A stretch of DNA of 64,000 bases from Terriglobia bacterium (GTDB taxonomy: Bacteria; Acidobacteriota; Terriglobia; Terriglobales; Acidobacteriaceae), in contig CAVRTD010000002.1 of the NCBI GenBank assembly GCA_963724105.1, positions 29,650 to 93,649 on the forward strand, given 5' to 3'. Positions within the stretch are counted from its first letter, which is position 1, and each line of letters begins with the position of its first letter. The notes beneath the pieces are model-generated. The model did no database searches, was not told where the DNA came from, and was given only the letters and a program-made list of their open reading frames with translations. The translations under genes and the position numbers were made by a program. Of the stretch, positions 28,274 to 63,226 are shown in pieces.

Positions 28274-28555
28274 ATGAGCCATCACGACCCTCAATTTCAA
28301 TCGGCTATTCGCCAGGTACTCCGGCGATCCGCCATAGATCAGGATTTTCGCCAGTTGGCGCTGAAAGATAGCACGGCGGCTTTCGCTAAATTTGGCATCG
28401 TTCCGCCTGCGGACGTCACGGTGGATTTCATTGACAACTTCGGGAAGCCGAGGAAGACCATTGTGCTCCCTGACCCAGTGGCACAGGTAGAGGAACTAAC
28501 AGACGAGGACTTAGAGGAAGTAGCCGGGGGATGTGTCCTGGCAAGCACCATCTAG
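28274..28555 (+). CDS. NHLP/Nif11-type RiPP precursor peptide: 86-aa leader ending VAGG, 7-aa core CVLASTI
   Basis: Start chosen at MSHHDPQF (RBS GAAGGAG 8 nt upstream). The leader reads ...AIDQDFRQLALKDSTAAFAKFGIVPPADVTVDFIDNFGKPRKTIVLPDPVAQVEELTDEDLEEVAGG|CVLASTI. It has the nitrile-hydratase-like leader layout with a classical double-Gly cleavage motif. The NHLM-type export genes follow directly. Confidence 0.8.
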   Translation: MSHHDPQFQSAIRQVLRRSAIDQDFRQLALKDSTAAFAKFGIVPPADVTVDFIDNFGKPRKTIVLPDPVAQVEELTDEDLEEVAGGCVLASTI

Positions 28556-28650
28556 TTCATACGATGAATTCATGAGTCGGAGTGCAGAAGTGCTTCTGCA
28601 AGCTGAGAGCTGCTTCTGCACATTCGAACAAAAAATGGCGCGGGACAGAA

Positions 28651-30330: not shown

Positions 30331-30343
30331 TGGAGGTAGAAGC

Positions 30344-33910: not shown

Positions 33911-33912
33911 TT

Positions 33913-36819: not shown

Positions 36820-37991
36820 TGGATAACCTACTGAAGTTTCGCGCCGAAGTACTAAACTCTTGCGGAGCCAGCAGTTCAGAAACCCAGGAACTCCTTGCCT
36901 ATAGTGATAACCGCTTTGACCACGCAGGGCTGGCGGAGATCGTGTTTCCTCTTGCTGATGAACCTTTTGTGAAATCCTGGAAAGCCTATGGAGAAGAGGT
37001 TACAGCAGCGGGCACTTTCTCAATCCTTGCGAAATACCTCGTCCAGTTACGGTTTCCCATCAGGACAGGCATGAGTCAGGATCCTGATTATCTTGCGGCT
37101 ACCACCAGAGGCACAGGCTTTGCAACGGATGGGCCCCTGGGTCTTCCACTGATCGCACCAGAGAAATGCCACGTTGTCCTGCACCCGACTCCGGCCGGCC
37201 ACATACCATTGTTGATTGCTGAAGAGCGCATGGACTTCGTATTGCTGGTACAGGCACTTGCCAGGCGCAACGAACCGACTCCTATTCCGGCTTCCATGGG
37301 CGCCTGCATGGTCAGCGGCTACAACAACTGGGATCGAGTCTTCCAGGTTGTCCAGAAAGATGGAGCGGCACGATCCCTGAATCCTTCCGATTATCAGGAT
37401 CGTTTTATCATTCTTAGCAAAGGCTACTATAGCGGGGTGGAGCCTGCCGCTATGTCTCTCCAGGAACGCGAGTGGCGTGAACTATCCTTGATCATTCGGC
37501 GAGAACATGAGTCAACGCACTACTTTACGCGGCGGGTATTCTCCTCCATGCGTAATAATTTGCTCGACGAAATCCTCGCTGATTATTGTGGGGTTGTTAC
37601 AGCTACAGGCCGCTTCCTTCCAGACTGGATGCTCCGCTTCTTTGGCCTGGAACATTTTCCGCACTATCGTTCAGGCGCAAGGCTGGAGAACTATAAGGGT
37701 AAACCGGCGCTTTCCGCTGGCGCTTTTTTGGTTTTGCAAAAGCTCGTCAAGCAGGCGATTGACAACCTGGGCGCCATGAATGCCCCGATAGCAAAGAGTG
37801 ACTGGCAAAGCTCTCCATTCCCGCTGCTTGGGTTGCTGGCCTTGTCCAGGTTCACGCTGGAGGAGCTGGCTTCCGGCGACGCGCCCGATCTAATACAGGC
37901 TGAACTCTTGCGCCTGGAAACTGCCGGCATCGGCTCGCGTCGATCCATCAACTACGATCCACACACAACATCATTAGGCCAGGCTGGGTGA
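36819..37991 (+). CDS. unknown protein with HExxH motif, translationally coupled to the ABC2 gene
   Basis: 390 aa. The ATG shares a base with the upstream TAA (TAATG). The sequence REHESTHYFTRRVFSSMRNNLLDEILADY contains HESTH plus a downstream Glu, compatible with a gluzincin-like site. There is no signal peptide or TM. Confidence 0.5.
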   Translation: MDNLLKFRAEVLNSCGASSSETQELLAYSDNRFDHAGLAEIVFPLADEPFVKSWKAYGEEVTAAGTFSILAKYLVQLRFPIRTGMSQDPDYLAATTRGTGFATDGPLGLPLIAPEKCHVVLHPTPAGHIPLLIAEERMDFVLLVQALARRNEPTPIPASMGACMVSGYNNWDRVFQVVQKDGAARSLNPSDYQDRFIILSKGYYSGVEPAAMSLQEREWRELSLIIRREHESTHYFTRRVFSSMRNNLLDEILADYCGVVTATGRFLPDWMLRFFGLEHFPHYRSGARLENYKGKPALSAGAFLVLQKLVKQAIDNLGAMNAPIAKSDWQSSPFPLLGLLALSRFTLEELASGDAPDLIQAELLRLETAGIGSRRSINYDPHTTSLGQAG

Positions 37992-48020: not shown

Positions 48021-49382
48021 TCACATCCGAGATTCAGTTTGGCCAGGTTTCCAGAAAGACACTTTCGGCCTCCACCTGGCGTCGGAGCCCGATGGTAGGC
48101 TCTTTGATTCGAAAATGTCACTTCCGCTTCGAAGGAGAATCGATGCAAGCCTTGTAGTCTCCTGAGAGATGGCTGGATCGATTGGCGCACCATCCGTCAA
48201 GTCAGACCAAAACGCACTTTTTTTGCGTAGATCTACATTCAACACAAAAAGGTATGCGGCCGAAGCCAAAACAAGGTGGTGATGGAACCCTTTCCATGAC
48301 CGTCCCTGGTAGCAGCCCAGATCCAGATCACGTTCAAGACAGCCCTGGTACTGCTCCTGATACGAACGATGCCGGCTCAACCGGAGGCACATGGTTTCAG
48401 TTGGCCGTTTGTGGAAACGCGCGAGGTAACAACGATAAGGTTGTGCCTGCCCGTCGGGCCAATCGACAACAAACCAGAGTCTTTGGAGGCTGCTACTTAT
48501 CCCATGTAGACCGGAATCCAGGAAGACCTCGCGAATTGCAAGCCGCGTTTGCCGTGAAGTACCTTCACGCGTAGCCCAGGAGCAGCGCGACCATTCTGCG
48601 GCCCCGATTTTTTGCATGATTTTTTCCAGCGTGTATGGATGCGGCTGCAGGCTCGAATTCCATTCAGGCGTGTTGGACTGAAAATCCCAGGCAATATTCG
48701 TTTTTGGATCCACTTCCAGAAAGAATTCCATTCCAGCGTGCAATAAGGCTGAACGAAAATCGGCGTCGTTGCCGTAAGCAGCATCGCCTACCAGCGGCTT
48801 GGGATGGAGCCCGTCACCGGTCACTTCCCGCAATAGTGCTAGCACAAGGGATGACCGTGAGGGAAAACATGCATCCTTGGGGACCCCGGACCGCGACAGT
48901 CTCGATGACTCGGCAGCCCAGTCTGGCGGGAGATACAGCCGTGCAGCAAGCGGCGCCGCGAACGATCCATCACTGGCCAGTATCTCCACGCTGATCTGGC
49001 AACGGGACTTCTTGCCATCCGCGCCACATCGCTGGTTTGATACGCCGACAGATTCATTCCCCTGCTTTGTCCATGCTCTCTCATTCACCACCCAGCGATC
49101 GACCGGTTCAATAGTGGGAATGATTGCTCTACGTATGCGCGTCCAAACCTGTTGATCGTCCCATGGGCTGTTTGCAATCGTCTGATGCAGGCTCTGGGAG
49201 TCTACTTGCAGCCGCTCGGCAAGAGGACGAATGAATTTTCTTCTTCCGGGCAGCAGCAGGCCTTCAATGTATCTGGCGGTGGCGACCCGCCGCTCCTGCC
49301 TGCCGATGCTTTCCAGCAGCGTGGAGAGATAGCGAGTCAGGTAGGGAATATTTTCTTTATATGTTGCCAGTTCCCACTTCAT
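48021..49382 (-). mobile_element. IS701-family-like DDE transposase gene, apparently degenerate, no terminal inverted repeats found
   Basis: Start MKWELATYKEN with RBS GGAGG. The sequence WVVNERAWTKQGNESVGVSNQRCGADGKKSRCQISV...ARLYLPPDWA...VGDAAYGNDADFR...GCYQGRSWKGFHHHLVLASAAYLF follows the IS701 DDE_5 layout. The first catalytic position reads N-E-R where I expect D-D-T (motif recalled from memory). Confidence 0.65.
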
Positions 49383-49452
49383 AAATTCACGACCTCCCCT
49401 TCCGACCCACATCATGGTTCCCGAATTTCCGCGGTCTGGGCGAACATAGCGT

Positions 49453-50535
49453 CTAAGCAGACGCCTTCCACAAGATCGGCGACCGCATTGCGAACTCTAA
49501 AACCTCATCCATCGACTGATCCTGAATGGGAACGGGAAGCGCCGAATGGCGCAGCCACAGGAGACGCCATGTTCCGGGATACCATTGGCGCAACCTCTCG
49601 ACCCCGCGCCACAACAGTCGCGAGAGGTACACCTCTTCAGGGTTGTTCAATCCAATCCGATTGGCAGTCATGTGAATGTGGCTTGACGTAATGGGCCAGT
49701 GGGCTTGCCGGGAAAGACCGCTGATCTCAGCAGCCAGGCCCCGGCTAATATTCACCAGGCTGGACGGCTCACAATTTTTGCTGGCACACACGGACTCAAG
49801 CTCTGCGATTACTAATTCTGTAATCTGCTTTTCCTGCCGCGAAAACACAAGATCAGCCTCCCGAATACAAGGCTCCAGCGAATCACCCCATGCCTCTGAG
49901 GCATACGCGGCGAGCCGGACAAAATCTTCTTCGTCACCCGCCAGTCCCCAGGCAAGTTGGAGGGCCAGACGCATCATCGCGGAGTTAATCCAGTCACGAC
50001 GGGAATTGCCGCGTTCATCCAGCATTTTCAGGATAGCCAGACTGGAGATGCAAAAAAGATCAATCGAGGCGCCGATATGGTCTGCGCCTCCATAGCGATT
50101 GATTTCAAACACAGGGGTAAACTGCCGCCATGAATTGTCCGCGTAGACACGACTAACGTCCGCTCGTGCTGCCGGATCAGTGGTTGCAATCGCCCGGTTC
50201 GTAGCCAGGATCTGGTCCTGAGCAACCGGCGCTTTAGAAGGATACTTGTCAAAAAAACCGGCAGCGCGCTTTTGTAGAACTTCCTCCGCGCGTCCACTGG
50301 TATTTTCATCTTTCAATCGCCAGCGCAAACGGAGATGAGGGCCTCCAAGCGAGTACCGGACAAAATAAAACCGGTCGATCACTCCCAGGCTAGCCAGTTC
50401 GAGCATGAGCGGCCACGCCAGTTCCCGCAACATTCTGTCGCGATCGGCATGATAGAACACGTGGTATGCGCGCCAGCGCAGCAATGAATCTGGGCACGTG
50501 CCACCATTAGATTGACCTATAAGTTGCGTTGCCAT
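49453..50535 (-). CDS. stand-alone LanB C-terminal (SpaB_C / thiopeptide-type) elimination-domain protein
   Basis: LLRWRAYHVFYHADRDRMLRELAWPLM...IDRFYFVRYSLGGPHLRLRWRL and the C-terminal SSHIHMTANRIGLNNPEEVYLSRLLW match the Lant_dehydr_C / TIGR03891-type pattern (W..Y...; FF.RY..GPHLRLR; H.h.NR). Confidence 0.8.
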   Translation of the reverse strand: MATQLIGQSNGGTCPDSLLRWRAYHVFYHADRDRMLRELAWPLMLELASLGVIDRFYFVRYSLGGPHLRLRWRLKDENTSGRAEEVLQKRAAGFFDKYPSKAPVAQDQILATNRAIATTDPAARADVSRVYADNSWRQFTPVFEINRYGGADHIGASIDLFCISSLAILKMLDERGNSRRDWINSAMMRLALQLAWGLAGDEEDFVRLAAYASEAWGDSLEPCIREADLVFSRQEKQITELVIAELESVCASKNCEPSSLVNISRGLAAEISGLSRQAHWPITSSHIHMTANRIGLNNPEEVYLSRLLWRGVERLRQWYPGTWRLLWLRHSALPVPIQDQSMDEVLEFAMRSPILWKASA

Positions 50536-51395
50536 GCGTAGAGAATAATTGGGATTTCTTGTAATACGATTTGCCCCAATTGCAGCAGAGTGAAGTGGTT
50601 GATCGAGCGCAGGAGACCGAACCCCTGAGCGAGAGAAGACTTTGATTGCGAGACGATCAGGAGAACCAGTCCGTCCACGTCCACCGAGAGGTCAGTTTCT
50701 TCATTCCATATTTCGGAAAAGAATTTCTGATTTGCCCGCGAGACGGCTTTTTGCAGCCATTCGCTTGACATCTCTGGCCGTTCCTTGATGCTTTGCTCCA
50801 GCCCGAACAGAAGACTTCCAGCATGGAAGCGCCAGTAGTCCGCGGGCGGAATTTTTTGCCTTTTCAATGATCGATCAACCGCTGCCAGCCAGCGAACCGC
50901 TGCTCGTGAGACGTTGCCGCCAGCTTGCTCCAAGGCCCAGAAACATACCTGGTCGATGCGCTCCCAGAGTTCATCTGCCGCAGCAACGCCGGCATTGAGC
51001 AGAAAGGGATAGCCATTGTGTTCATGCTCAAAAATCTGAAAGGAGTTGTTCAGGGCTGAACCTGGCTCTCGATCAGCCAGATTCATCGTCCTGCCCCTGC
51101 ACCCGCCGTGCCGTTCAGACACTTCCTGAGCGCTAAGTTGTGCGTGGCTTGGATAACGGGTAATAAATTTCTGAATATTGTCCTGGAGATAGGTCTTAAC
51201 GCAGTCTCCTCCGGCGGTTGTGGTGGTGAAGATGCCGAAGACGTGCGGGCTCCGCGCGTCATACGGGCAAAACCAGAGCCGCTGCAGCAATCCCTGCCGA
51301 CGGACATCGTGCGCCCACGCGTTGAGTCCGTGTTGCAGGAGGCGCTGCTGGTCCTCCATTCCCCAATAATAGATATTAAATCCGATATTCGTCAT
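50517..51395 (-). CDS. divergent SpaB_C-like paralogue (start uncertain)
   Basis: NIGFNIYYWGMEDQQRLLQHGLNAWAH...LQRLWFCPYDARSPHVFGIF and the C-terminal LLRSINHFTLLQLGQIVLQEIPIILYAW are collinear with the SpaB_C pattern. The canonical GPHLRLR and H..NR residues are replaced. Candidate starts are at 51395, 51419 or 51359. Confidence 0.5.
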   Translation of the reverse strand: MTNIGFNIYYWGMEDQQRLLQHGLNAWAHDVRRQGLLQRLWFCPYDARSPHVFGIFTTTTAGGDCVKTYLQDNIQKFITRYPSHAQLSAQEVSERHGGCRGRTMNLADREPGSALNNSFQIFEHEHNGYPFLLNAGVAAADELWERIDQVCFWALEQAGGNVSRAAVRWLAAVDRSLKRQKIPPADYWRFHAGSLLFGLEQSIKERPEMSSEWLQKAVSRANQKFFSEIWNEETDLSVDVDGLVLLIVSQSKSSLAQGFGLLRSINHFTLLQLGQIVLQEIPIILYAWQRNL

Positions 51396-52077
51396 AGATG
51401 CCGGGGCCGCTCGACTCATAATCGATCGCAATAGTCTCAAAACGAAAGAAGCTGCGGATAACACGATCGTAGAAAGGCATTCTTCGCTCTTCTTCCATGA
51501 CCATGCATAACTCTTCAAAGAAGGCAACGTTGGGCTGGCGAATCGAAAGAAAAAGACTACGGAGCGTCGAATAAAAAACGGCTGGACCGTGGGGCGTCTC
51601 GCAAAGAGGGGTGCGGTCCGTAAGCATCGCCTGCACGCGGCTGATGTGGCTATGCATTTCTTCCCATTTGCGCTGATTGCGCGCCACGCGAGCCTGGTTA
51701 ATACACAGGTCGGGACACTGCAGGGCGAATGGAATCAGGAATTCATATTCCTCTGCGGCCATGGCGACGGCCCTGTGTGCCCATTTCATCGACTCGCTTG
51801 CGCTCGCGAAATCTCCTGCTCGGTAGTGGTATAGGCCAAGAGTCTTGTAGTAAGACTGGTCAAGCACAACTCGAACCGAATTGGGTATGTCGACAGCTTC
51901 CAGAGCGCCACCGGCTTTCTGCAGAATGTTTCCGGCTTCCTTTATTTTGTGCGAACGAAGAAGCGGCATCGCGCTGTTGATCAGGCGCAAGATGTGGCAG
52001 TGACGTTTATATTCCCCAACCCATGCGAGCCCGGCATCACCGGTGCGCTCGATAAATTCAATCAGGATATCTGCCAT
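51376..52077 (-). CDS. unknown helical-repeat protein, paralogue 2 of a tandem pair
   Basis: 233 aa. It shares blocks with 52138-52809: YHYRAGDFASASESMKWAHRAV vs YFYSVGNFQQARESMNQAHDAV; QARVARNQRKWEEM vs QARIARNQRRWPEM; FYDRVIRSFFRFETIAIDYES vs LFDQFVRRMLRFQEIGIEYQS. No TM or signal peptide. Confidence 0.6.
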   Translation of the reverse strand: MADILIEFIERTGDAGLAWVGEYKRHCHILRLINSAMPLLRSHKIKEAGNILQKAGGALEAVDIPNSVRVVLDQSYYKTLGLYHYRAGDFASASESMKWAHRAVAMAAEEYEFLIPFALQCPDLCINQARVARNQRKWEEMHSHISRVQAMLTDRTPLCETPHGPAVFYSTLRSLFLSIRQPNVAFFEELCMVMEEERRMPFYDRVIRSFFRFETIAIDYESSGPGIYDEYRI

Positions 52078-52137: not shown

Positions 52138-52809
52138 TCAAGATTGATATTCGATGCCAATTTCCTGGAATCGCAGCATGCGCCGGACAAATTGGTCGAA
52201 GAGGCGGCTTCGTTCTTCCTGGTCTACTATTTTGGCGGCTACACTGGATTCTTCAGTCGTCATGTCGCCGATCTGCGCAAAAAAACTACGAAACGCGGAA
52301 AAATATATTTTTTGACCATTGATTTTTTCGCACAAAGGAACATGGTCCAGCATCATTCCCTGTGCCTGCGCGACGAACGTATTCATTTCAGGCCAGCGGC
52401 GCTGGTTGCGCGCGATTCGCGCCTGATGAAGACAGAATTCCTGACAGTGCACCGCCAGCATGATCAACCAGTCCGCACTGCTGATGGCTCTTTTCACGGC
52501 GTCATGCGCCTGGTTCATTGATTCGCGGGCCTGCTGAAAGTTGCCCACGGAATAGAAGTAATAGCCGGCAACGCCGTGGTGCCAACGGTAGAGCACTGCG
52601 CTCACAGAATCTTGTTCGCCTCTCATCGCGGACAGATGATGCGCAAATTCCCGCAGCACTCTTCCCCCTTCTTCAATCTCGCCCTTGCGCATCAGAGCCA
52701 GCGCGCGATCGCTGAGTGCAACGGCAGGCAAGTGCCGGCGATAGGCGGCAGCCCAATCCTGGCCAGCGCTGCCAGTACGCTCGGCAAAATGAAGCCAATC
52801 ACATGCCAC
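52138..52809 (-). CDS. unknown helical-repeat protein, paralogue 1 of a tandem pair
   Basis: 223 aa; see the paralogue at 51376-52077. It is the first gene after the precursor-gene terminator. Confidence 0.6.
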   Translation of the reverse strand: MACDWLHFAERTGSAGQDWAAAYRRHLPAVALSDRALALMRKGEIEEGGRVLREFAHHLSAMRGEQDSVSAVLYRWHHGVAGYYFYSVGNFQQARESMNQAHDAVKRAISSADWLIMLAVHCQEFCLHQARIARNQRRWPEMNTFVAQAQGMMLDHVPLCEKINGQKIYFSAFRSFFAQIGDMTTEESSVAAKIVDQEERSRLFDQFVRRMLRFQEIGIEYQS

Positions 52810-52886
52810 GATTCAATTCCTCAATTCCCGCTGGATTCACGGTAGTCACTTTTTGACATCAACAGGTCCATTGGATAGATAAAAGC

Positions 52887-52920
52887 CTCTGGGACAGACA
52901 TCAAACCGCCTGTCCCAGAG
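52887..52920 (-). terminator. intrinsic terminator/attenuator hairpin after precursor gene A1
   Basis: CTCTGGGACAG (52887-52897) pairs perfectly with CTGTCCCAGAG (52910-52920), giving an 11-bp stem and a 12-nt loop. On the minus-strand RNA the hairpin begins 35 nt after the TGA and is followed by GCUUUUAUCUAU. Confidence 0.55.
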
Positions 52921-52954
52921 AAAACAAACAACTTGCAGCCTGGCGAACGAGATA

Positions 52955-53110
52955 TCAGCCAGAGCAGACGTTAGCGGAGCAGGATGCGATCGGGCAAGGT
53001 TCAAGAACGCCGCCGGAAACATCTTCCAGCGCCTGATCGGACAGTGGTTCAATCTCAACATCTTGTTTTTTTTCTGGAATTGCATTTGGATTGGTAGCTT
53101 TGTCAGACAT
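52955..53110 (-). CDS. lanA: lanthipeptide-type precursor A1 (51 aa), not in the ORF track
   Basis: Hand translation: MSDKATNPNAIPEKKQDVEIEPLSDQALEDVSGG|VLEPCPIASCSANVCSG*. RBS AAAGGAAAAAAC precedes the ATG. The leader is double-Gly type and the core has 3 Cys and 3 Ser. The 79-aa track ORF 52846-53085 is the wrong frame. Confidence 0.8.
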   Translation of the reverse strand: MSDKATNPNAIPEKKQDVEIEPLSDQALEDVSGGVLEPCPIASCSANVCSG

Positions 53111-53171
53111 GTTTTTTCCTTTCTATTGGATTTACTGTTGGTGGAGTCAATTTTTGCTTTGCGACAGGGCT

Positions 53172-53238
53172 CTCTTCTGAAGCCGGTTTAACTGGTACCA
53201 ACCGGTTCTTTGGGCCAGTCGAGTTGATCTCAGAAGAG
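53172..53238 (-). other. nested RNA stem-loop structure in the spacer between precursor genes A2 and A1
   Basis: The outer 9-bp stem is CTCTTCTGA (53172-80) / TCAGAAGAG (53230-38). The inner 6-bp stem is CCGGTT (53183-88) / AACCGG (53200-05). No U-tract follows on the minus strand. Confidence 0.4.
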
Positions 53239-53295
53239 CATGGCCCGTGTGAACCTCGGTGCAACCCAGCTATAGCCTGGATTGAAGCGATCCGG

Positions 53296-53451
53296 CTACG
53301 CTAGGTCGCCAGAGCAAACATTTGCGGAACATGAAGCGATGGGGCAGCCACCGGAAGCATCTTCGAGCGACTGGTCGGAAAGTGGTTCGATCTGAACGTC
53401 ATCCTGTTTCTTTTCGGGGACTACATTTGGTTTATTGGGAGTGTTAGCCAT
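53296..53451 (-). CDS. lanA: lanthipeptide-type precursor A2 (51 aa), not in the ORF track
   Basis: Hand translation: MANTPNKPNVVPEKKQDDVQIEPLSDQSLEDASGG|CPIASCSANVCSGDLA*. RBS AAAGGAACAACCATC precedes the ATG. It shares the CPIASCSANVCSG core block with A1. Confidence 0.8.
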   Translation of the reverse strand: MANTPNKPNVVPEKKQDDVQIEPLSDQSLEDASGGCPIASCSANVCSGDLA

Positions 53452-53642: not shown

Positions 53643-56399
53643 CTACCTTGTTGCGGCTTGCTCATCGCGTTGACGTAACCGAGATGACTCCCGGCTGGAA
53701 AACACATCGAGCGAAAACATGGCGCGCTCATCCACAGGCGATTGCAATGCAACCGCATCAACCAGCAATTCAACCGCCCACCTTTGCCCTTTGGAATCTC
53801 TGGGCATCATCTCCGGTTCGGGCAATGTTTCCACCAGCACAAGGGACCCTTCGGCTGCGAGCGCGATGGAGTGCAGGATCGAGATGAACAATGGTGAGCT
53901 CAGGTCCAGATATTGCGGCTTGTGGTATTTTCCCCGCGGGAAAGAATTAAGCTTCTCAGCCACAAACAAACGGGTTGGAATCTCGAACTTCCGGAGGAAA
54001 CGATGCAGCCGCTCAAACGCCTCTGGGCTCCCAGGGTCTTCCAGAATGCGCCGCAGATCTAGAGCTGGAACACTCCAACTCTTGCGCATAAGCACTACAT
54101 TTCCGATGCGCGTCCGCTCGCGGACGGTGATGCCATCGACCTCTCGCTGTAAGCGTTCGGGATAGAGGGGAATCGTATCTGTTGGTCCGAACGCACACAA
54201 AAACTTCACCAGAGTTGGCAGGTAAGTGGAGCCAGCAAGGCCGATATAAGACGCCAGGTAGCGCTGTCCACTGCGATCCTGCAGCCTGGGCCATCCATCT
54301 TCACCCACTGTAACAAACAGCTCTGCCAAAGAAAGGCGCCGTTCGGGCGCTATATCCATATGGGTTGCCGGCAGCACCAGGACTTTTGGGGTTTGTGGCG
54401 CATGCACGTTGAGCGTGTCACCACTCACGCAATGAATGTCCAATATCTGCAAGCATTCGTCGTTATCCAAAATTACCGCTCGCCGCGCTAACCCGTCAGC
54501 ATACTGATGGCGGAGCGGAGCCGGCATCAACGGAGTGTAACGGCTGGACATCCGGCCCGTTCCTTCTTTCAACCGGTTGAGCACCCACAGAGAACCATCC
54601 GCTGTAGCCGGTTGGAGAAAAAGGCAGCCGCCTCCCTGGTACTTCTTGAATGCGTCAGGTATCTCGTCCAGGAGAAGGTTAAAACGGCTTATCGAGATTG
54701 TGCGGCCCTGCGCATCATCCATCCAACAATTGCGCAAAGATTCGCGGGCAGCAGTGCGTACCGATAGCAAATGATCCAGCACATCCAGACCCAGCGGATT
54801 CCAGGTTGAATGCTGCTCCTCAGTGGACCTGATCGCGGACTCATGAGAAACGTATTCCTGGAACAAATCCCGCACAGCGTCAAACGCACTGAGAAGATCC
54901 AGCCTGCAGTGCTTCCCTTTACTTTTTTCGAGAACAGAGCCAACGCTGAATAGAAGATCAAGGCGGCGGTCAAACAAGCGTGAGTATCGTAAAAGTGGCT
55001 CTGCGCTCCGTTGGGCCTGTTCCATGGCCGTCCTTCCAACACTCACGACTGGAAGACCCTTATCGGATTTGGGAGAACACCAAACATCCTGATAAATATC
55101 GTGCCCGGGAATATGCGACGCCGTTTTCGTATTGGTCGGGAGTTGAGCAATACGAGTGGCGCTGAACACCATTTCGTCCATCGTTTGCTGCATGCGCAAG
55201 AGCGTTTGTCCCGGTTCATTTGCGGAAAAAAGATTTCCTTCCAGAAGCACTAACCGCTCCAGAAGTTCAATGAAGTTTTGCAGCGCCGGGTCATGCGGCA
55301 ACAGCTGGAGCTTTTGCAGGACCATTTTCTCAAGGTGCCCTTCATCGGCGCTCCAGGGCAACGCCAGATACAGAAACCCCAAATCAATCAGACTGTCTAT
55401 TTCTTCTTTGATCGACTCGGAATGCGCATCCATTTCATCTTCGATCAGCTTAAGTAGCTCAACATAATTGAGCGGACCGCTAGCCAGAAGTGATTGCAGG
55501 CGCTGGACGAGAGGCCCCTGAAGCCTGGCGCGAACAAGTGACTCGCGGTAGTAACGGATCTCCTTGGTATCTTCGTCCACTCGATACTGCCCGGGACGGC
55601 GGTGAAGAGTCCGTCCGTCCTCGAGTTTCGAAACTGAATCGTTAATCGCTACCGAAAGCGTGCGCCGCCACGGTTCATAAAGACATAACGCATCGGTACA
55701 CCGGTCAAGAATGTGTCTACGTACGCGCACTAGAGAATGCTGATCCCATTCACCAGGCAACAATCTCAAAGGCTCCGAGCCGCCTTCCACGCGACACAAC
55801 CCGACCGGAGTGAAAGTCGAGAATGGAGACAGTTTGAGAGAAGCCCGGCTGGCGTAACGCAATACTGTCGCGGCCAGGCGTTTTTCCCGGCGACCATAAT
55901 CTTCCGGCGCTTTCACTTTCAAACGGCCGGACTCGCTGGCCACTGTATTGCTTGCCACTGCCAGCCCGCAGCGGAACATGGGATTATCAATCAGCCCAGC
56001 GACACAGTGATACTGCCTTGTTGTTTCATCTCCGTGGGCTTTTACAAACTCTTGCTTTTGATGAGCGAGGTTCTCTTCCAGCTCAATCACTTGTTCCGCC
56101 AGCGCCGGAGCGGCTTGTTTTATGAGCATCCAAACCAGCTTCGTGCGATAGCGGGTTAGTGGACGTCCATTAAAGCAATCACGCTTGACTTCCAGGAGAG
56201 CGTGTCGTTTCTCGGTCGGAGCATTATGAATAGCCGCGTGAAGCTGTTCAACAAGTTCATTACGAGCGTTGGATAAATTAGCTTCGAGCTTTGCTATCGC
56301 ATTCAGAATATCGCCCAACCGGCTGGAAAAATCCTCCATTGTGCTGGCGGGGAGTCCGCTCAATCGGGCTATAAGTAGGGCTGAATTGCTCGTCGTCAC
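53643..56399 (-). CDS. lanB: LanB-type dehydratase, N-terminal (glutamylation) part only, no fused elimination domain
   Basis: 918 aa. MTTSNSALLIARLSGLPAST..., KRDCFNGRPL and LKLSPFSTFTPVGLCRV follow the Lant_dehydr_N pattern. The protein ends without a SpaB_C-like region. Confidence 0.85.
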   Translation of the reverse strand: MTTSNSALLIARLSGLPASTMEDFSSRLGDILNAIAKLEANLSNARNELVEQLHAAIHNAPTEKRHALLEVKRDCFNGRPLTRYRTKLVWMLIKQAAPALAEQVIELEENLAHQKQEFVKAHGDETTRQYHCVAGLIDNPMFRCGLAVASNTVASESGRLKVKAPEDYGRREKRLAATVLRYASRASLKLSPFSTFTPVGLCRVEGGSEPLRLLPGEWDQHSLVRVRRHILDRCTDALCLYEPWRRTLSVAINDSVSKLEDGRTLHRRPGQYRVDEDTKEIRYYRESLVRARLQGPLVQRLQSLLASGPLNYVELLKLIEDEMDAHSESIKEEIDSLIDLGFLYLALPWSADEGHLEKMVLQKLQLLPHDPALQNFIELLERLVLLEGNLFSANEPGQTLLRMQQTMDEMVFSATRIAQLPTNTKTASHIPGHDIYQDVWCSPKSDKGLPVVSVGRTAMEQAQRSAEPLLRYSRLFDRRLDLLFSVGSVLEKSKGKHCRLDLLSAFDAVRDLFQEYVSHESAIRSTEEQHSTWNPLGLDVLDHLLSVRTAARESLRNCWMDDAQGRTISISRFNLLLDEIPDAFKKYQGGGCLFLQPATADGSLWVLNRLKEGTGRMSSRYTPLMPAPLRHQYADGLARRAVILDNDECLQILDIHCVSGDTLNVHAPQTPKVLVLPATHMDIAPERRLSLAELFVTVGEDGWPRLQDRSGQRYLASYIGLAGSTYLPTLVKFLCAFGPTDTIPLYPERLQREVDGITVRERTRIGNVVLMRKSWSVPALDLRRILEDPGSPEAFERLHRFLRKFEIPTRLFVAEKLNSFPRGKYHKPQYLDLSSPLFISILHSIALAAEGSLVLVETLPEPEMMPRDSKGQRWAVELLVDAVALQSPVDERAMFSLDVFSSRESSRLRQRDEQAATR

Positions 56400-56615: not shown

Positions 56616-56765
56616 TCACCCTAAGTCTGGAGGCCCACACAAGGGTGAACCAGTTTCAGTACCGCCTGAAACTTCCTCAAGAGCGGCGTCGGAAAGGGGT
56701 TCGATTTCAGCGTCTTTCCGGCTCTGAATTGACTTGCCAGGCTGTTTTTTTTCCTCGTTTGGCAT
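56616..56765 (-). CDS. lanA: third precursor A3 (49 aa) with the same leader box, different core
   Basis: MPNEEKKQPGKSIQSRKDAEIEPLSDAALEEVSGG|TETGSPLCGPPDLG*. Start at the internal ATG 56765 of track ORF 56616-56810, with RBS GAAGGGA upstream. Confidence 0.7.
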   Translation of the reverse strand: MPNEEKKQPGKSIQSRKDAEIEPLSDAALEEVSGGTETGSPLCGPPDLG

Positions 56766-56831: not shown

Positions 56832-57854
56832 TTACACCCGCGCAAGCTCCTGCGCAGGCACAAGACTATGATCTTCTACCGCTTTAATCAGAAGATGGTG
56901 CACATAGGCCTCATGCAGAGGTGTTACCCCAAATTGATTCGCCATTCCGTGCAACATCTTGAACAGAGGCGGAAAGTTCACGTTCGTAGTGAACGGATCA
57001 ATCTGATGTTCGCCGGAGCCGGCAAAAGATTGCGTATAAGCTGACAATGCCGCAAAGGTCCGCAACCACGGCTCTACTTCCTGGGCGCCGCTGTTGCGCG
57101 CCCACTCTTCATCACTGAGCTGCGCCAGCTTTGTTCTGGCAGTGCTGGAACCGGCTTGGGCATCAAAATGTGCACGAATCTCCAACTCTTTGCTGGATTC
57201 GGAAATGAAAAACCGCAAAAGCCAATCGCGATGAAAGGCAAGATATTCTGTCGCGCTGGTTCGATCACCAAGGCCAGAAGCACCCAGAGCCGAGATCAGG
57301 CTTTTTGCCAACAGAGATTGCTTGCTGCCATCCGAAAGCTCGCCCTGCTCATCTACGGCGGTGAGGAACACGCCAGTTGTTGCCGCAAGGCAACGACAGG
57401 CAAGGGCGACAAAATTTTCGTCTTCGAGCCAGGGTGACGCAGGAAGCGACACGTAGCTGCGTCCATAGGTTGTGGCGAGAAAGTTACGATCGGCGAAATC
57501 AGAATCTACTTTGTCTTCAGCGTCAATGGGTGGGGCCTTGGGATTACTTACACGAGGATCAGCCGCCAGGTAAGTGCGCGCTTTCTCGATCCACTTTTCT
57601 ACGTGGCTGTGCAGCAAAGGCCTCAGTGAATCCACCACAGCCCGCTCACCGTGAAGCCGAATCTTGAGGTGCTCCCCACCACGCGCGTAACGCATAATCC
57701 AAAGCCAACAATCCCCATCTGGCCGGACGCCCTGCATGTCACGCCAGAACGGCACAATCCCTTGCTGCAACAGGTTGTCCACCAGGCCGCTGGCATAAAT
57801 ATTTGCGGTTAAGATTGGATCTGCCGAATTGAGTGAATTAAGCATGTCCTTCAC
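56832..57854 (-). CDS. third SpaB_C-like (LanB C-terminal-type) paralogue
   Basis: ILTANIYASGLVDNLLQQGIVPFW...CWLWIMRYARGGEHLKIRLHG and the C-terminal LFKMLHGMANQFGVTPLHEAYVHHLL are collinear with the SpaB_C pattern. Confidence 0.65.
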   Translation of the reverse strand: MKDMLNSLNSADPILTANIYASGLVDNLLQQGIVPFWRDMQGVRPDGDCWLWIMRYARGGEHLKIRLHGERAVVDSLRPLLHSHVEKWIEKARTYLAADPRVSNPKAPPIDAEDKVDSDFADRNFLATTYGRSYVSLPASPWLEDENFVALACRCLAATTGVFLTAVDEQGELSDGSKQSLLAKSLISALGASGLGDRTSATEYLAFHRDWLLRFFISESSKELEIRAHFDAQAGSSTARTKLAQLSDEEWARNSGAQEVEPWLRTFAALSAYTQSFAGSGEHQIDPFTTNVNFPPLFKMLHGMANQFGVTPLHEAYVHHLLIKAVEDHSLVPAQELARV

Positions 57855-57932: not shown

Positions 57933-58472
57933 TCAGGCCACGGAAACGTTTTGAAAATGTTGCTCAGGCGCGGGCAAGGGAACGTACCCACCGAGATCGA
58001 CAACGACGGAACTGCGAACGACTTCAATCGATAGAACCAGCCGATGCTGATTACGGTGACTCTCAACAACGCCTTCAATCCCATCAAAAGGGCCACCAGT
58101 AATCCGCACTCTGGAACCAATCTCTGCATACTCGCACGGTTGCATCTGGTATCCAGACTTGACAGCTGATTGAATTGCGCTGATTTCGTGGTCAGGGATG
58201 ATAGCTGGAGATTTAGCAGTACCGAGAATACGTATGACGCCTGGGGTCAACAGGATGGGACCGCTACCCATAGCCTTGATGCGACAAAATACATATCCGG
58301 CAAATAATGGAAGCTGTATTTCCTTCCATCGATCAGACCAGCGCCTGCGTACAACATAAGAAGGAGCAAATGTCTCGTAATTCTTTTCCGACAGGAGTCG
58401 CGCAGCAGTGAATTCATGCTGGTACCGTACGTAGATCGCACACCATGCGCTGTCATACTGGCTGAGGTCCAT
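57933..58472 (-). CDS. specialised NusG paralogue (RfaH/LoaP/UpxY-like antiterminator), first gene of the operon
   Basis: Start MDLSQYDSAW with a strong RBS GAAGGAG. The NGN-like N-terminus is WCAIYVRYQHEFTAARLLSEKNYETFAP. The KOW motif is IGSRVRITGGPFDGIEGVVES. Confidence 0.8.
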   Translation of the reverse strand: MDLSQYDSAWCAIYVRYQHEFTAARLLSEKNYETFAPSYVVRRRWSDRWKEIQLPLFAGYVFCRIKAMGSGPILLTPGVIRILGTAKSPAIIPDHEISAIQSAVKSGYQMQPCEYAEIGSRVRITGGPFDGIEGVVESHRNQHRLVLSIEVVRSSVVVDLGGYVPLPAPEQHFQNVSVA

Positions 58473-58921
58473 ACCGTCTCCTTCGGTCAACGTGAGTTTG
58501 CCGATACAGATGAATCGCACACTCTTCACCTCAAGCGGATGGAAAACAGCAGGACGTAATCTTTGTATAGAGGTGTGAGGGAGCCACCGGTTGCGGCAAG
58601 GCAGGCTGCCGCCATTTTGAGTCCCAACTTCTTACTCATTCACTAACCCTTACCGGGCCAGTCACAGTGAGAATTAGCAATGCCATTGCCAAAGCATGCG
58701 TTCTATGAAGAACCGTGCTTTCCATTGTGCATTTTGATTCACAATGATTATGTTTGTGATGGTGATTCCCACTTTGAAATTATGGATCCGCTGCTCGTTC
58801 CGCTTTTAGTTGGAGTTCAACGACTATCATTTCCATTCTGGTTGACGATTGCTGCGGTGCCGGACAGGAACAACCGTAAAGGTGGCAAATTTAATTTTGT
58901 CCGACTTATCCTCAGCCAGGC

Positions 58922-59068: not shown

Positions 59069-60331
59069 CTATTGGATGGGGGTTGACGGCGTGAATTTTG
59101 GAACCATAATCACGATGTCATATCCAAAAATAAGCCGCTCCAGCTCTTCATCAACTGGGCCAAGCGCTTTAAATCTCCGGCGAAGGCCGCGAAGATCGTA
59201 GAGAGTCCAGCCTTCCGGCAATCGATGGTCCACCAGCGGCTTAATGAAAGAAACCGCAGAACTTGTATCCTGTACCAGATCAAAATTCTCCAGTTGCGGT
59301 GGCTGGCCGGGCGCACCAAAACTGATCTCTGCTCCCTTCACTCCAATGATGTTGATATGAAGAGAGGTGGAATGATGGCCTTCTGCCAATTCAGCCACAA
59401 AATTGCCCAGATCGTCGTTATGTAGAGGATTAATCCCCTTATAAAGGTGGGCGGAGCCAAACTTGAGCAAGACTTTGGCGGGTTTTCCCTCAGCCCGCGT
59501 CTGGTCATCATAATAACGGGCGAACAACGCCTTCATCATTAGCGCCCGCTGAAGGTTGGAATCATAAGCTTCACCCTGCAGATATTTGTGGTAGATATCG
59601 CGGCTTTCGATGAAGGCATTCAGAATGGCTTGCGAAGCCGGATTCCCTTCCCGAGCCACCGAGTTCTTAAGTTCCAGAATCTCGCTGTCCGGCACAGACA
59701 GCATAAAAATATCGTTCACTTTCCCCGAAGCCACGGTCCGCGCATAGGCTTGATCATTTTCGCGGAACATCTGGCGTATTTTGGCAGCCGCCGCCTTGCC
59801 GGGATGAGAATTCAAGAGGCTCTGTAGCAAAAACCTGGACTCTCCGTAAAACTCCTGATCAAGCCCCCATATATGGAATTTTTCATTTTCCGCAGTATGG
59901 CTGCAATGGGCCAACAGATCTGTTTCCTCCTGAAGACGATAGAATGGGAGGGCGTCTGGAAATTCTTTCTGAAACTCAGCAACCTGGTGGCGTGAATCCG
60001 TGGAGCGGGCCCACTTCTCTAATTGGCCGGCCATCATTGGGCCGGTTTCAATTGCCATGGAATGAAACCCTTGCGGAACGGCAAGGTCACATATTGCAGA
60101 AGAGAACTCGGGGGTTTCCGCATTGCCGTGTTGTTCACCGATGAGCACAAACTGGGCGGAGGCAATGGCCTTGCGCAGAACCTCAGCTCCTGCGCCAGAT
60201 AAATGCCCATCCTTCAGGTTGAGATCATAGCGGTTCTCAAGAAGTTGTTTTCCGAGTTGTTCCTGCGCCAACATACATCCAAGGCCGGCAATTCCTAGAA
60301 ATACCACAGCCGCCAGTTTGGTGATCACCAA
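59069..60331 (-). CDS. secreted Tiki/ChaN/erythromycin-esterase-superfamily-like protein
   Basis: 420 aa with a signal peptide (AAVVFLGIAGLGCMLAQ). FVLIGEQHGNAETPEFSSAICDLAVPQGFHSMAIETG resembles the GE.H(G)..E...Gf...E N-terminal signature of that superfamily (recalled from memory). The gene follows lanKC by 80 nt. Confidence 0.45.
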   Translation of the reverse strand: MVITKLAAVVFLGIAGLGCMLAQEQLGKQLLENRYDLNLKDGHLSGAGAEVLRKAIASAQFVLIGEQHGNAETPEFSSAICDLAVPQGFHSMAIETGPMMAGQLEKWARSTDSRHQVAEFQKEFPDALPFYRLQEETDLLAHCSHTAENEKFHIWGLDQEFYGESRFLLQSLLNSHPGKAAAAKIRQMFRENDQAYARTVASGKVNDIFMLSVPDSEILELKNSVAREGNPASQAILNAFIESRDIYHKYLQGEAYDSNLQRALMMKALFARYYDDQTRAEGKPAKVLLKFGSAHLYKGINPLHNDDLGNFVAELAEGHHSTSLHINIIGVKGAEISFGAPGQPPQLENFDLVQDTSSAVSFIKPLVDHRLPEGWTLYDLRGLRRRFKALGPVDEELERLIFGYDIVIMVPKFTPSTPIQ

Positions 60332-63111: not shown

Positions 63112-63226
63112 ACATAATCCCTTCGTGCTCAATACTTGTAGCGAATCCTAAATACAATTTTGCGGCCGGCGATCTGGCGCCGAATATTCAACCTTGCTCC
63201 TGTTTTTCATTTCCAATTCCTGCAAA

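What the first reader, a model, noticed from the sequence alone, without database searches (positions are those of the whole stretch)
52955..53451. Two tandem, unannotated 51-aa precursor genes sharing the core block CPIASCSANVCSG
Neither gene is in the ORF track because both are under 60 aa. Each has a good RBS and the conserved leader box (V/Q)IEPLSDQ(A/S)LED(V/A)SGG. The core is Cys/Ser-rich, with 3 Cys and 3 Ser each.

The cores are offset variants: VLEP-CPIASCSANVCSG versus CPIASCSANVCSG-DLA. This suggests two related products, or a two-component pair, from one enzyme set. The SCS and CS juxtapositions and a Cys directly at the predicted cleavage site (A2) are unusual for class I lanthipeptides.
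Basis: seen in the sequence. Interest (0 to 1): 0.85.

Follow-up and report, generated by a model that had tools for sequence, protein, structure and literature searches.

The report
Precursor genes of an uncharacterised lanthipeptide-like family
The two 51-codon genes are real and conserved: with a third one nearby they encode the precursor peptides of a widespread soil-bacterial family of enzyme-modified peptides, built on known lanthipeptide enzymes plus three conserved proteins of unknown role, that I found described in no paper or curated library I could search.

Summary
Observation confirmed. Two 51-aa ORFs lie on the minus strand: A1 at 53451..53296 and A2 at 53110..52955. Both have good ribosome-binding sites and share a leader box and the block CPIASCSANVCSG. 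In that block 7 of 13 codons differ between the copies, all synonymously. Across four lineages the count is 17 synonymous changes to 1 conservative replacement.

A third precursor, A3 (56765..56616), has the same leader and the core TETGSPLCGPPDLG.

The genes sit in a module conserved in Acidobacteriota, Gemmatimonadota and unassigned metagenome contigs: LanC, E1, LanB-N, precursors, TPR-like H, E2, E3, and often a C39-peptidase exporter. A profile search finds 470 unnamed peptides with a near-invariant double-glycine leader. Of 115 non-redundant ones, 108 carry C-S-x3-C-S.

E3 is a canonical glutamate lyase. LanB-N is closest to thiopeptide TbtB. LanC has a ProcM-like CCG zinc site. E2's predicted fold is closest to the [4+2] pyridine synthases TbtD and PbtD. 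H resembles only generic peptide-binding TPR modules.

Most likely these are split-LanB, class-I-type lanthipeptide precursors giving two products with one modified 13-residue block and different flanks. A true two-component pair is not supported. Extra chemistry by E1, E2 and H remains open. Novelty: a new variant of a known kind.

The parts
53296..53451 (-). Precursor A1 (51 aa). Leader ...VQIEPLSDQSLEDASGG; core CPIASCSANVCSG plus C-terminal DLA.
   Evidence: RBS, synonymous-only core differences; homologues; in public collections, unnamed; orthologue differences mostly at third codon positions.
52955..53110 (-). Precursor A2 (51 aa). Leader ...VEIEPLSDQALEDVSGG; core is N-terminal VLEP plus CPIASCSANVCSG.
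   Evidence: (P0009 is identical).
52886..52921 (-). Terminator/attenuator-like hairpin after A2: 15-bp stem followed by CUUUUAUCUA.
   Evidence: scan; the 81-nt stretch 52876..52956 containing it folds at -30.1 kcal/mol, z = -3.5 against shuffles.
56616..56765 (-). Third precursor A3 (49 aa). Same leader box (AEIEPLSDAALEEVSGG); core TETGSPLCGPPDLG; RBS GAAGGGA.
   Evidence: Conserved in L004 and as P0017, P0031, P0042 and P0100.
53643..56399 (-). LanB-N: split-LanB glutamylation subunit (918 aa).
   Evidence: Pfam Lant_dehydr_N 4e-23. Closest solved sequences are TbtB 6EC7 (3e-24) and the goadsporin protein 9JHQ.
56832..57854 (-). E1: diverged SpaB_C-fold protein (340 aa), function unknown.
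   Evidence: Pfam Lant_dehydr_C 2.9e-11 over the full length. hhalign to E3 gives probability 83% over the full length. The motif RGGEHLKxRxHG is kept. Conserved in all family loci.
52138..52809 (-). H1: family-specific TPR-like helical protein (223 aa).
   Evidence: AF2 pLDDT 93, all-helical. Foldseek finds only generic peptide-binding TPR modules, best E = 3.5e-3. 55 unnamed homologues. Present in L011-L014.
51376..52077 (-). H2: paralogue of H1 (233 aa, 36% identity).
   Evidence: The duplication is seen in the Acidobacterial loci (window, L004, L010, L018, L019); there is a single copy in L011-L014.
50517..51395 (-). E2: SpaB_C-fold protein (292 aa) whose predicted fold is closest to [4+2] pyridine synthases.
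   Evidence: AF2 pLDDT 96.5. Foldseek: TbtD and PbtD at E about 4e-8, TM 0.60-0.65, versus MadB/NisB/MibB at 3e-4 to 4e-3, TMq about 0.5. The deep profile hits only TbtD and PbtD in PDB sequences. It has lost the Arg pair of the elimination site. 157 representatives at 50% clustering.
49453..50535 (-). E3: canonical anti-type glutamate lyase (elimination subunit of the split LanB, 360 aa).
   Evidence: Pfam Lant_dehydr_C 2.3e-32. The profile matches NisB 821-975 at 8e-5, with equivalents of R786, R826 (EVERYGG) and H961 invariant in the family. The criterion comes from PMC9486935.
46703..48193 (-). LanC cyclase of LanM-cyclase type with a CCG zinc motif. The true start is probably near 47990; the ORF maximum is given.
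   Evidence: Pfam LANC_like 1.2e-50. NCBIfam LanM C-terminal half 1e-81. Motifs GYAHG, WCNG and FPCCG. Relatives are called at 411-446 aa.
57933..58529 (-). NusG-family paralogue at the head of the operon; candidate antiterminator for the long operon (inference).
   Evidence: Pfam NusG 1.7e-15. Same position in L004.
31592..33910 (+). C39-peptidase ABC transporter: candidate leader peptidase/exporter cutting after GG.
   Evidence: Pfam Peptidase_C39, ABC_membrane and ABC_tran. 50% identical to the in-cluster exporter of L012. Flanked by OEP 28582..30330, HlyD 30167..31591 and a second ABC protein 33907..36819, the last 42% identical to L012's second ABC protein.

Best explanation
A1 and A2, with A3, are genuine precursor genes of an uncharacterised RiPP family built on split class-I lanthipeptide machinery.

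Proposed pathway:
1. The near-invariant double-glycine leader (x-IEPLSD-xx-LE-x-V/A-x-GG) docks the peptide on the enzymes.
2. LanB-N glutamylates the core serines using Glu-tRNA.
3. E3 eliminates glutamate to give dehydroalanines.
4. The CCG-type LanC adds the cysteine thiols to form thioether rings within the compact block C-P-I-A-S-C-S-A-N-V-C-S-G. One ring is predicted as Ser7 to Cys11, with nisin ring-A spacing. At least one other ring must have its Cys on the N-terminal side of the Dha.
5. A C39-peptidase ABC exporter, with HlyD and an outer-membrane factor, cuts after GG and secretes the product.

A1 and A2 would then give two products with the same modified 13-residue block, carrying either a C-terminal DLA tail or an N-terminal VLEP extension. 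E1, E2 and H are conserved accessory proteins that perform or organise one or more further steps, currently unknown.

Shown here: gene reality, purifying selection, synteny, family breadth, and the identities of LanB-N, E3, LanC and the exporter. Inferred: every chemical step, the ring pattern, the cleavage site, and the use of the distal exporter.
For: Coding and selection:
-. The core block shows 17 synonymous versus 1 conservative codon difference between paralogues in four lineages.

Conservation and synteny:
-. The module LanC, E1, LanB-N, precursors, H, E2, E3 is constant across Acidobacteriaceae, Longimicrobium and metagenome loci.
-. There are 470 leader-box peptides, and 108 of 115 non-redundant ones carry C-S-x3-C-S with Cys2, Ser3, Cys7 and Ser8 invariant.

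Enzymes:
- Searches identify LanB-N.
- Searches show E3 has the NisB R786, R826 and H961 equivalents.
- Searches show LanC has His and Cys ligands with a ProcM-like CCG motif, which is associated with substrate promiscuity.

Leader and export:
- The GG motif precedes the variable spacer.
- A C39 exporter is in-cluster in L012 and fused to E3 in L014.
- An orthologue-level exporter lies in the window.
- There are weak hits to generic double-glycine bacteriocin models only.
Against: - No product or transcript data exist.
- Three conserved proteins (E1, E2, H) have no role in the canonical class I pathway.
- E2's fold is closer to [4+2] aza-cyclases than to elimination domains, and LanB-N is closest to thiopeptide TbtB. 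The chemistry may therefore go beyond lanthionine.
- With Cys at core position 1 and Ser as the last conserved residue, not all three Cys can pair in the usual Dha-before-Cys direction.
- The window's exporter is 19 kb away and has its own NHLP-type GG peptide upstream. Its assignment to A1-A3 is an inference.
- No sigma-70-like promoter was found directly upstream of A1 or A2.
Confidence: 0.72

Rival explanations
1. Hybrid or aza-cycle chemistry. E2 (possibly with E1) catalyses a thiopeptide/pyritide-like formal [4+2] cyclisation between the dehydroalanines made from the two invariant serines (S-x4-S; Ser7 and Ser12 in A1). This would give a six-membered nitrogen heterocycle, with LanC adding thioethers elsewhere. 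The N-terminal part is either expelled, or retained as in dehydropiperidine-type thiopeptides.
For: - E2's model is closest to TbtD and PbtD: E about 4e-8, TM 0.60-0.65, versus about 0.5 for LanB elimination domains.
- The deep E2 profile hits only TbtD and PbtD among solved-structure sequences.
- E2 lacks the Arg pair of glutamate lyases.
- LanB-N is closest to TbtB.
- The S-x4-S spacing equals Ser1/Ser6 of pyritide precursor MroA1, whose pathway needs no azoles (PMC9247985).
- Both invariant Ser are preceded by Cys. From my own knowledge, the pyridine-forming Ser of thiomuracin and GE2270 sits in a ...CCSCS... context.
Against: - No azole-forming enzyme is present in any locus.
- LanC is universal in the family.
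- Expelling everything N-terminal of the first Ser would discard the invariant Cys, and in the window the strictly conserved C-P-x-A-S-C.
- In a low-scoring part of the PbtD alignment, E2 has a near-invariant His where PbtD has a Tyr that is replaced by Ala in a deposited variant. His is the residue type found at this position in glutamate lyases.
- No stand-alone glutamate lyase such as TbtC appeared among the solved structures, so the structural ranking may simply reflect 'stand-alone protein versus domain'.
Confidence: 0.13
2. A1 and A2 are the two components of a synergistic two-peptide lantibiotic.
For: - The N-extended/C-extended pair recurs in the window, L004, L010 and L018.
- The Acidobacterial clusters also carry two H paralogues.
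Against: - The two cores are identical over 13 residues. From my own knowledge, known two-component lantibiotics use structurally distinct alpha and beta peptides.
- Other family loci have 2-6 near-identical precursors.
- L019 has three copies with N-, C- or both extensions.
- Gene order of the two forms is reversed in L018.
Confidence: 0.08
3. Redundant copies. The variable flanks are trimmed after modification (N-terminal trimming; tail loss at the last Ser/Dha). Both genes then yield the same mature 13-residue product, and duplication serves dosage.
For: - Flanks vary freely between lineages while the block is invariant.
- Family-wide, the GG-to-motif spacer is 4-20 aa, and the tail after the last Ser is 0-24 aa with 7 zero-length tails.
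- From my own knowledge, C-terminal Dha residues are removed to leave amides in some thiopeptides.
Against: - No trimming protease or dealkylase was identified.
- Persistence of both forms in several lineages suggests the flanks matter.
- Pro before the block in A2 (VLEP, FLSP, VAP, IAP) is semi-conserved.
Confidence: 0.17
4. Chance ORFs or a non-coding element.
For: The ORFs are short, and no sigma-70-like promoter was found nearby.
Against: - Third-position bias and synonymous-only core differences.
- Good ribosome-binding sites.
- 470 homologues.
- Leader-box count versus shuffles.
- No Rfam match.
Confidence: 0.01

Closest known systems
Split-LanB class I lanthipeptides (pinensin; SapT/Spt; Coi systems)
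   Same: - The glutamylation and elimination functions are on separate proteins, together with a LanC.
- More than one SpaB_C-type protein in one cluster has precedent: anti- and syn-glutamate lyases acting at different sites (PMC9486935; PMC7268733).
   Different: - Here three SpaB_C-fold proteins plus a TPR-like protein are constant across phyla.
- Only E3 has the full lyase site.
- The conserved substrates are Ser, for which syn/anti elimination makes no difference.
- The precursors carry a double-glycine leader and a C-S-x3-C-S core not reported for those systems in the papers I could search.
Thiopeptide and pyritide pathways (TbtB/TbtC/TbtD; MroB/MroC/MroD)
   Same: - LanB-N is closest to TbtB.
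- E2's fold is closest to TbtD and PbtD.
- The S-x4-S spacing matches MroA1 Ser1/Ser6.
- Pyritides need no azoles.
   Different: - No YcaO or azole enzymes.
- A LanC and several Cys are always present.
- The first Ser is not at core position 1.
- E2 has His at the position a low-scoring alignment equates with a mutated PbtD Tyr.
Prochlorosin-type systems (ProcM, CCG cyclase; GG leaders; PCAT export)
   Same: - A CCG zinc motif in the cyclase, which is associated with promiscuity.
- Many precursors per enzyme set.
- A double-glycine leader with C39 exporter.
   Different: - The cyclase here is a stand-alone LanC, working with a tRNA-dependent split LanB rather than a LanM dehydratase domain.
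- Cores are short and share one tight motif, instead of being hypervariable.
Cinnamycin/duramycin core N-terminus (C-x-x-S-C-S...) and nisin rings A/B (own knowledge)
   Same: - Cys at core position 1 and an S-C-S run in which all three residues are cross-linked, including rings with Cys N-terminal to the dehydro residue.
- S-x3-C (Ser7 to Cys11) has nisin ring-A spacing.
- A3's S-P-L-C resembles nisin ring B (T-P-G-C).
   Different: - Cinnamycin is a class II (LanM) product of 19 residues with lysinoalanine.
- There is no sequence homology.
- The resemblance is a lead recalled from memory and was not tested here.

Membership tests
Class I lanthipeptide (LanB/LanC type) | Glutamyl-tRNA-dependent dehydratase: glutamylation domain | tested here: met
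   Lant_dehydr_N 4e-23; TbtB 3e-24.
Class I lanthipeptide (LanB/LanC type) | Glutamate-elimination domain with catalytic Arg/Arg/His | tested here: met
   E3 has R71, R147 (EVERYGG) and H288, equivalent to NisB R786, R826 and H961 and invariant in 7 orthologues.
Class I lanthipeptide (LanB/LanC type) | Stand-alone LanC cyclase with zinc ligands | tested here: met
   LANC_like 1.2e-50. Motifs GYAHG, WCNG and CCG; the third ligand is Cys instead of His.
Class I lanthipeptide (LanB/LanC type) | Precursor with a leader and a Ser/Thr- and Cys-containing core next to the enzymes | tested here: met
   A1, A2 and A3. Conserved synteny.
Class I lanthipeptide (LanB/LanC type) | Lanthionine or methyllanthionine in the mature product | not testable with these tools
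   Needs MS and NMR of the product.
Double-glycine-leader peptides exported by C39-peptidase ABC transporters | Leader ending in GG (or GA/GS) with the L-S-x-x-E/D-L-x-x-V/I-x-G-G pattern | tested here: met
   The pattern is read directly in 100+ members. Curated GG-leader HMMs give only sub-threshold hits.
Double-glycine-leader peptides exported by C39-peptidase ABC transporters | Cognate C39-ABC transporter | tested here: met
   In-cluster in L012 and fused to E3 in L014. In the window at 31592..33910, 50% identical to L012's. That it serves A1-A3 is an inference.
Two-component lantibiotic | Two structurally distinct peptides (alpha and beta) | tested here: not met
   The cores are identical over 13 residues.
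Two-component lantibiotic | Synergistic activity | not testable with these tools
   Needs a bioassay.
Thiopeptide | Azole-forming cyclodehydratase (YcaO) and dehydrogenase | tested here: not met
   No such Pfam family in the window cluster or in loci L001-L014.
Thiopeptide / pyritide | [4+2] aza-cyclase (TbtD/PbtD/MroD type) | tested here: inconclusive
   E2's fold and profile are closest to TbtD and PbtD. However, NCBIfam NF045556 scores 19.5 bits against a cut-off of 325, and the tentatively aligned active-site position differs.
Pyritide | Two Ser positioned for macrocyclisation, with no Cys cross-links | tested here: not met
   S-x4-S is present, but several invariant Cys and a LanC accompany it.

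The most novel reading that the evidence does not exclude
The family makes a new hybrid scaffold. The two invariant C-S dipeptides are turned into a small nitrogen heterocycle-bridged or otherwise non-lanthionine cross-linked ring by the aza-cyclase-like E2 (with E1 and H), combined with LanC-made thioethers. This would be a 'lanthi-pyritide' made without azole chemistry, widespread in Gemmatimonadota and Acidobacteriota.
Probability: 0.12. Interest if true: 0.9.

Novelty: new variant of a known kind. Interest (0 to 1): 0.62.

Why it matters
Acidobacteriota and Gemmatimonadota are abundant soil phyla from which few natural products have been characterised.

This locus defines, from sequence alone:
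- a precursor family of several hundred members with a near-invariant export leader;
- a compact hallmark core, C-S-x3-C-S;
- a fixed six-protein enzyme module.

Three proteins of that module have no assigned role: E1, the aza-cyclase-like E2 and the TPR-like H. The module gives a direct handle on what 'extra' SpaB_C-fold proteins do in lanthipeptide clusters, a question a 2020 genome-mining survey called open (PMC7268733).

The near-invariant leader together with variable flanks makes the system attractive for engineering small, highly cross-linked peptides. If E2 performs cyclisation chemistry, it would link the lanthipeptide and thiopeptide/pyritide worlds.

Tried and rejected
- Full-text searches for the peptide strings (EPLSD, IEPLSDQ, CSANVCSG, SCSANVC, CCSCSNCS, CCSCSDCS) found no relevant paper. 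The 'CCSCS' search was swamped by 'colorectal cancer stem cells'.
- Searches for Acidobacteria/Gemmatimonadota class I lanthipeptides, and for aza-cyclase plus LanC hybrids, found no description of this family.
- Pfam and NCBIfam give no family for A1-A3 or H.
- Single-sequence searches of E1, E2 and E3 against solved structures gave nothing useful. Small orthologue profiles gave only marginal TbtD hits for E1 and E2 and nothing for H.
The exhaustive-search hits were accepted instead.
- The 420-aa upstream protein has no relative in the Longimicrobium locus and no Pfam family.
- The sigma-70 promoter scan found no site near the precursors.
- The A1-A2 spacer has no significant RNA structure.
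- The sliding DNA identity plot against L004 was confounded downstream of A1 by L004's extra gene and is not used.
- The idea that the IS-like DDE_5 gene disrupted a LanM was rejected. No LanM dehydratase half lies on the other side, and LanC is intact.
- The metagenome-contig scan was not used, because the protein searches already gave enough members.
Full report
**1. The observation**

Reading the window shows two 51-codon ORFs on the minus strand at exactly the stated coordinates.
- A1, 53451..53296: MANTPNKPNVVPEKKQDDVQIEPLSDQSLEDASGG-CPIASCSANVCSGDLA.
- A2, 53110..52955: MSDKATNPNAIPEKKQDVEIEPLSDQALEDVSGG-VLEPCPIASCSANVCSG.

Each has AAAGGAA 7-8 nt before its ATG.

Aligned as DNA, the two copies are similar only inside the ORFs. 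Of the 27 codons that differ, 16 are synonymous, and 21 of 31 base differences are at third positions. Within the shared 13-residue block, 7 codons differ and all are synonymous.

The back-translated EPLSD box occurs three times in the 64-kb window, all on the minus strand and in small ORFs. Chance expectation is 0.28, and no shuffle of 100 reaches three. No Rfam family matches the locus.

A 15-bp hairpin followed by a U-rich stretch lies just after A2. The 81-nt stretch containing it folds at -30 kcal/mol, z = -3.5.

**2. A third precursor**

The third EPLSD match belongs to a 49-aa ORF, A3, at 56765..56616 between the first SpaB_C-like gene and LanB-N. Its sequence is MPNEEKKQPGKSIQSRKDAEIEPLSDAALEEVSGG-TETGSPLCGPPDLG, and it has a GAAGGGA ribosome-binding site. 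It is conserved in relatives as ...TGSPLC(T/P/A)PPD....

**3. Surroundings in the window**

All of the following are on the minus strand:
- a 420-aa protein without family;
- a NusG paralogue;
- E1, a 340-aa SpaB_C-fold protein;
- A3;
- LanB-N, 918 aa (Lant_dehydr_N);
- A1 and A2;
- H1 and H2, 223 and 233 aa, paralogues at 36% identity;
- E2, 292 aa, with weak SpaB_C/TbtD-like hits;
- E3, 360 aa (Lant_dehydr_C, 2e-32);
- a DDE_5 transposase-like gene;
- LanC.

About 19 kb away on the plus strand lie an outer-membrane factor, a HlyD adaptor, a C39-peptidase ABC transporter and a second ABC protein.

**4. Relatives**

A single-sequence search found 11 clusters of 50-70-aa peptides, all with CP(I/V/L)ASCSANVCS(G/T).

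Their contigs show the same gene order. The closest named genome is an Acidobacteriaceae MAG.

N-extended and C-extended copies co-occur in the window, L004, L010 and L018. Comparing the two paralogous 13-codon blocks within each of these four lineages gives 17 synonymous and 1 conservative (I/V) difference. This means selection on the peptide in both copies and excludes recent gene conversion. Orthologue comparisons with L004 show 22-29 of 34-47 base differences at third positions.

A Longimicrobium MAG (Gemmatimonadota) has LanC, E1, LanB-N, six precursors, H, E2 and E3. Its precursors have the leader VEIEPLS(D/E)xDLEGVAGG and cores ending ...SCCSCSxCS....

A profile of 18 peptides retrieved 470 small proteins, all unnamed or 'hypothetical'. 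Among the 120 listed:
- The leader is almost invariant.
- 108 of 115 non-redundant sequences carry x-C-S-x3-C-S, with Cys2, Ser3, Cys7 and Ser8 invariant.
- Position 1 is Cys (90) or Ser (18), and position 4 is mostly Cys (81) or Ala (13).
- The spacer after GG is 4-20 aa, and the tail after the last Ser is 0-24 aa.

The window's S-C-S-A-N-V-C-S is therefore a divergent subtype of a large family.

Three further loci (L012-L014) show the same module. L012 adds a C39-ABC exporter and a second ABC protein. In L014 the exporter is fused to E3. No locus has a YcaO or other azole enzyme.

Distant E2 relatives sit in related clusters. One has precursors again showing C-S-x3-C-S (TCSYWCCSG; L017).

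**5. The proteins**

LanB-N is closest, among solved structures, to the thiopeptide glutamylase TbtB (3e-24) and the goadsporin enzyme.

E3's profile aligns to NisB residues 821-975 (8e-5). It carries equivalents of Arg786, Arg826 (shared EVERYGG motif) and His961, all invariant among seven orthologues. Arg826 is the published marker of anti-eliminating glutamate lyases (PMC9486935). E3 is thus the elimination partner.

E1 aligns to E3 over its full length (hhalign probability 83%). It keeps the RGGEHLKxRxHG and LHGLANQ motifs.

E2 differs from both:
- It aligns to E3 only over the first ~116 residues and has lost the Arg pair (GPHVFAIF).
- It forms a discrete family of 157 representatives among 1.84 billion proteins.
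- Its AlphaFold model (pLDDT 96.5) is closest to the pyridine synthases TbtD and PbtD: E about 4e-8, TM 0.60-0.65. The MadB/NisB/MibB elimination domains score 3e-4 to 4e-3 with TMq about 0.5.
- The deep E2 profile matches only TbtD and PbtD among solved-structure sequences.
- A caveat: no stand-alone glutamate lyase structure appeared among the matches for comparison.
- In a low-scoring stretch, E2 has a near-invariant His where PbtD has a Tyr that is Ala in a deposited variant.

H has 55 full-length, unnamed homologues. Its confident all-helical model (pLDDT 93) resembles only generic peptide-binding TPR modules, with no match at E <= 0.001.

LanC scores 1e-81 against the C-terminal half of the LanM model. 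It has GYAHG, WCNG and C-C-G where classic cyclases have C-H-G. The CCG motif is seen in most family LanCs checked. It is the ProcM-like feature associated with substrate promiscuity (PMC13509491).

The window's C39 transporter is 50% identical to L012's in-cluster exporter, and its partner ABC protein is 42% identical. This is the same divergence as E1-E3.

**6. How it most likely works**

The evidence shows the following:
- A1-A3 are coding genes under purifying selection.
- They belong to a large leader-defined family.
- They are fixed next to a split LanB (LanB-N plus E3), a LanC and, family-wide, a C39 exporter.

The following steps are inferred:
1. The leader recruits the enzymes.
2. Core Ser residues are glutamylated and eliminated to Dha.
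3. LanC adds Cys thiols.
4. The exporter cuts after GG.

With three Ser and three Cys in thirteen residues, a tricyclic product is expected. Ser7 to Cys11 has canonical S-x3-C spacing. Cys1 lies N-terminal to every Ser, so if it is cross-linked it must add to a Dha on its C-terminal side.

A1 and A2 would yield the same modified block with different flanks. The very variable spacers and tails in the family suggest that the flanks are either tolerated decoration or are trimmed.

E1, E2 and H are conserved across phyla, so they must matter. Candidates are:
- a second, site-specific lyase (E1);
- a leader- or core-binding scaffold or chaperone (H; the E2 N-terminal region);
- a further cyclisation (E2).

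The NusG paralogue and the hairpin after A2 suggest high precursor expression with controlled read-through. This too is an inference.

**7. Comparison with what is known**

The machinery meets every sequence-testable criterion of class I lanthipeptide biosynthesis in its split-LanB form.

Several glutamate lyases in one cluster are known from the SapT and Coi systems. There they control Dhb geometry, which cannot apply to Ser.

The leader and exporter are of the double-glycine/PCAT type, and the cyclase is ProcM-like.

The two-component idea fails its one testable criterion, since the peptides are not distinct.

Thiopeptide membership fails because no azole enzymes are present. Pyritide membership fails because of the Cys residues and the LanC. 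Still, the TbtB-like LanB-N, the TbtD/PbtD-like E2 and the S-x4-S spacing (identical to MroA1 Ser1/Ser6) keep a hybrid chemistry possible.

No paper or curated HMM library available here describes the leader, the core motif, H or E2. A 2020 survey explicitly left the role of extra elimination-domain homologues open.

**8. Verdict**

The finding is real. The two-component suggestion is not. The system is best classed as a new variant of a known kind, with a modest chance of new chemistry.

Noticed in passing
window 48021..49415 (-); L004 13719..15107: A DDE_5 'transposase' gene sits between E3 and LanC at the same position in a diverged relative. It is 81% identical there, more conserved than the flanking enzymes (62-68%). 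No terminal inverted repeats of 12 bp or more lie within about 300 bp. It is absent from the Longimicrobium-type clusters. It could be a domesticated transposase or an old insertion.
   Followed up: partly
window 28274..28555 (+): A 93-aa peptide has a nitrile-hydratase-like (NHLP-type) leader (NHase_alpha 1e-5, below cut-off). It ends ...ELTDEDLEEVAGG-CVLASTI and lies immediately upstream of the OEP/HlyD/C39-ABC operon. It is a fourth GG-leader peptide with a 7-residue core.
   Followed up: partly
window 60412..63132 (-): A class III/IV-type lanthionine synthetase (RamC_N + kinase + LanC-like, 906 aa) lies just upstream of the cluster. Its LanC-like part lacks the zinc-ligand motifs I searched for. 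It is absent at this position in L004. Its own precursor was not looked for.
   Followed up: no
L004 9660..9827; also P0019 and P0030: Between the two CP..CSG precursors of L004 lies a leader-box ORF whose core has no Cys (AGGATGAGALGLEQSEEETQI). A similar Cys-less peptide exists in another lineage. It may be a decayed precursor or have a non-substrate role.
   Followed up: no
L014 12030..15389: The glutamate lyase E3 is fused to the C39-peptidase ABC exporter in one 1119-aa protein. This links modification physically to leader cleavage and export.
   Followed up: no
window 52138..52809 and 51376..52077 (-): The TPR-like protein H is duplicated (36% identity) in the Acidobacterial clusters, which also have two precursor classes (CP..CSG and TGSPLC). 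It is single in the Longimicrobium-type clusters. A one-H-per-precursor-class relationship is possible but untested.
   Followed up: partly
L015 1101..1337; L017 1439..1564 and 1850..1999: Near distant E2 relatives there are GG-leader peptides, one with a Nif11-type leader, whose short cores start with Trp and are Gly-rich and lack Cys or Ser (GG-WDGQGGGGG, GG-WTEGGGG, GG-WAEKTDG). Their relation to the E2 family is unexplained.
   Followed up: no
window 59069..60331 (-): A 420-aa protein without any Pfam or NCBIfam family is conserved upstream of the NusG paralogue in the Acidobacterial clusters (419 aa in L001-L009). It is not found in the Longimicrobium locus.
   Followed up: partly
window 36819..37991 (+): A DUF7005 protein (5e-124) directly follows the two ABC transporter genes. 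Its role is unknown.
   Followed up: no
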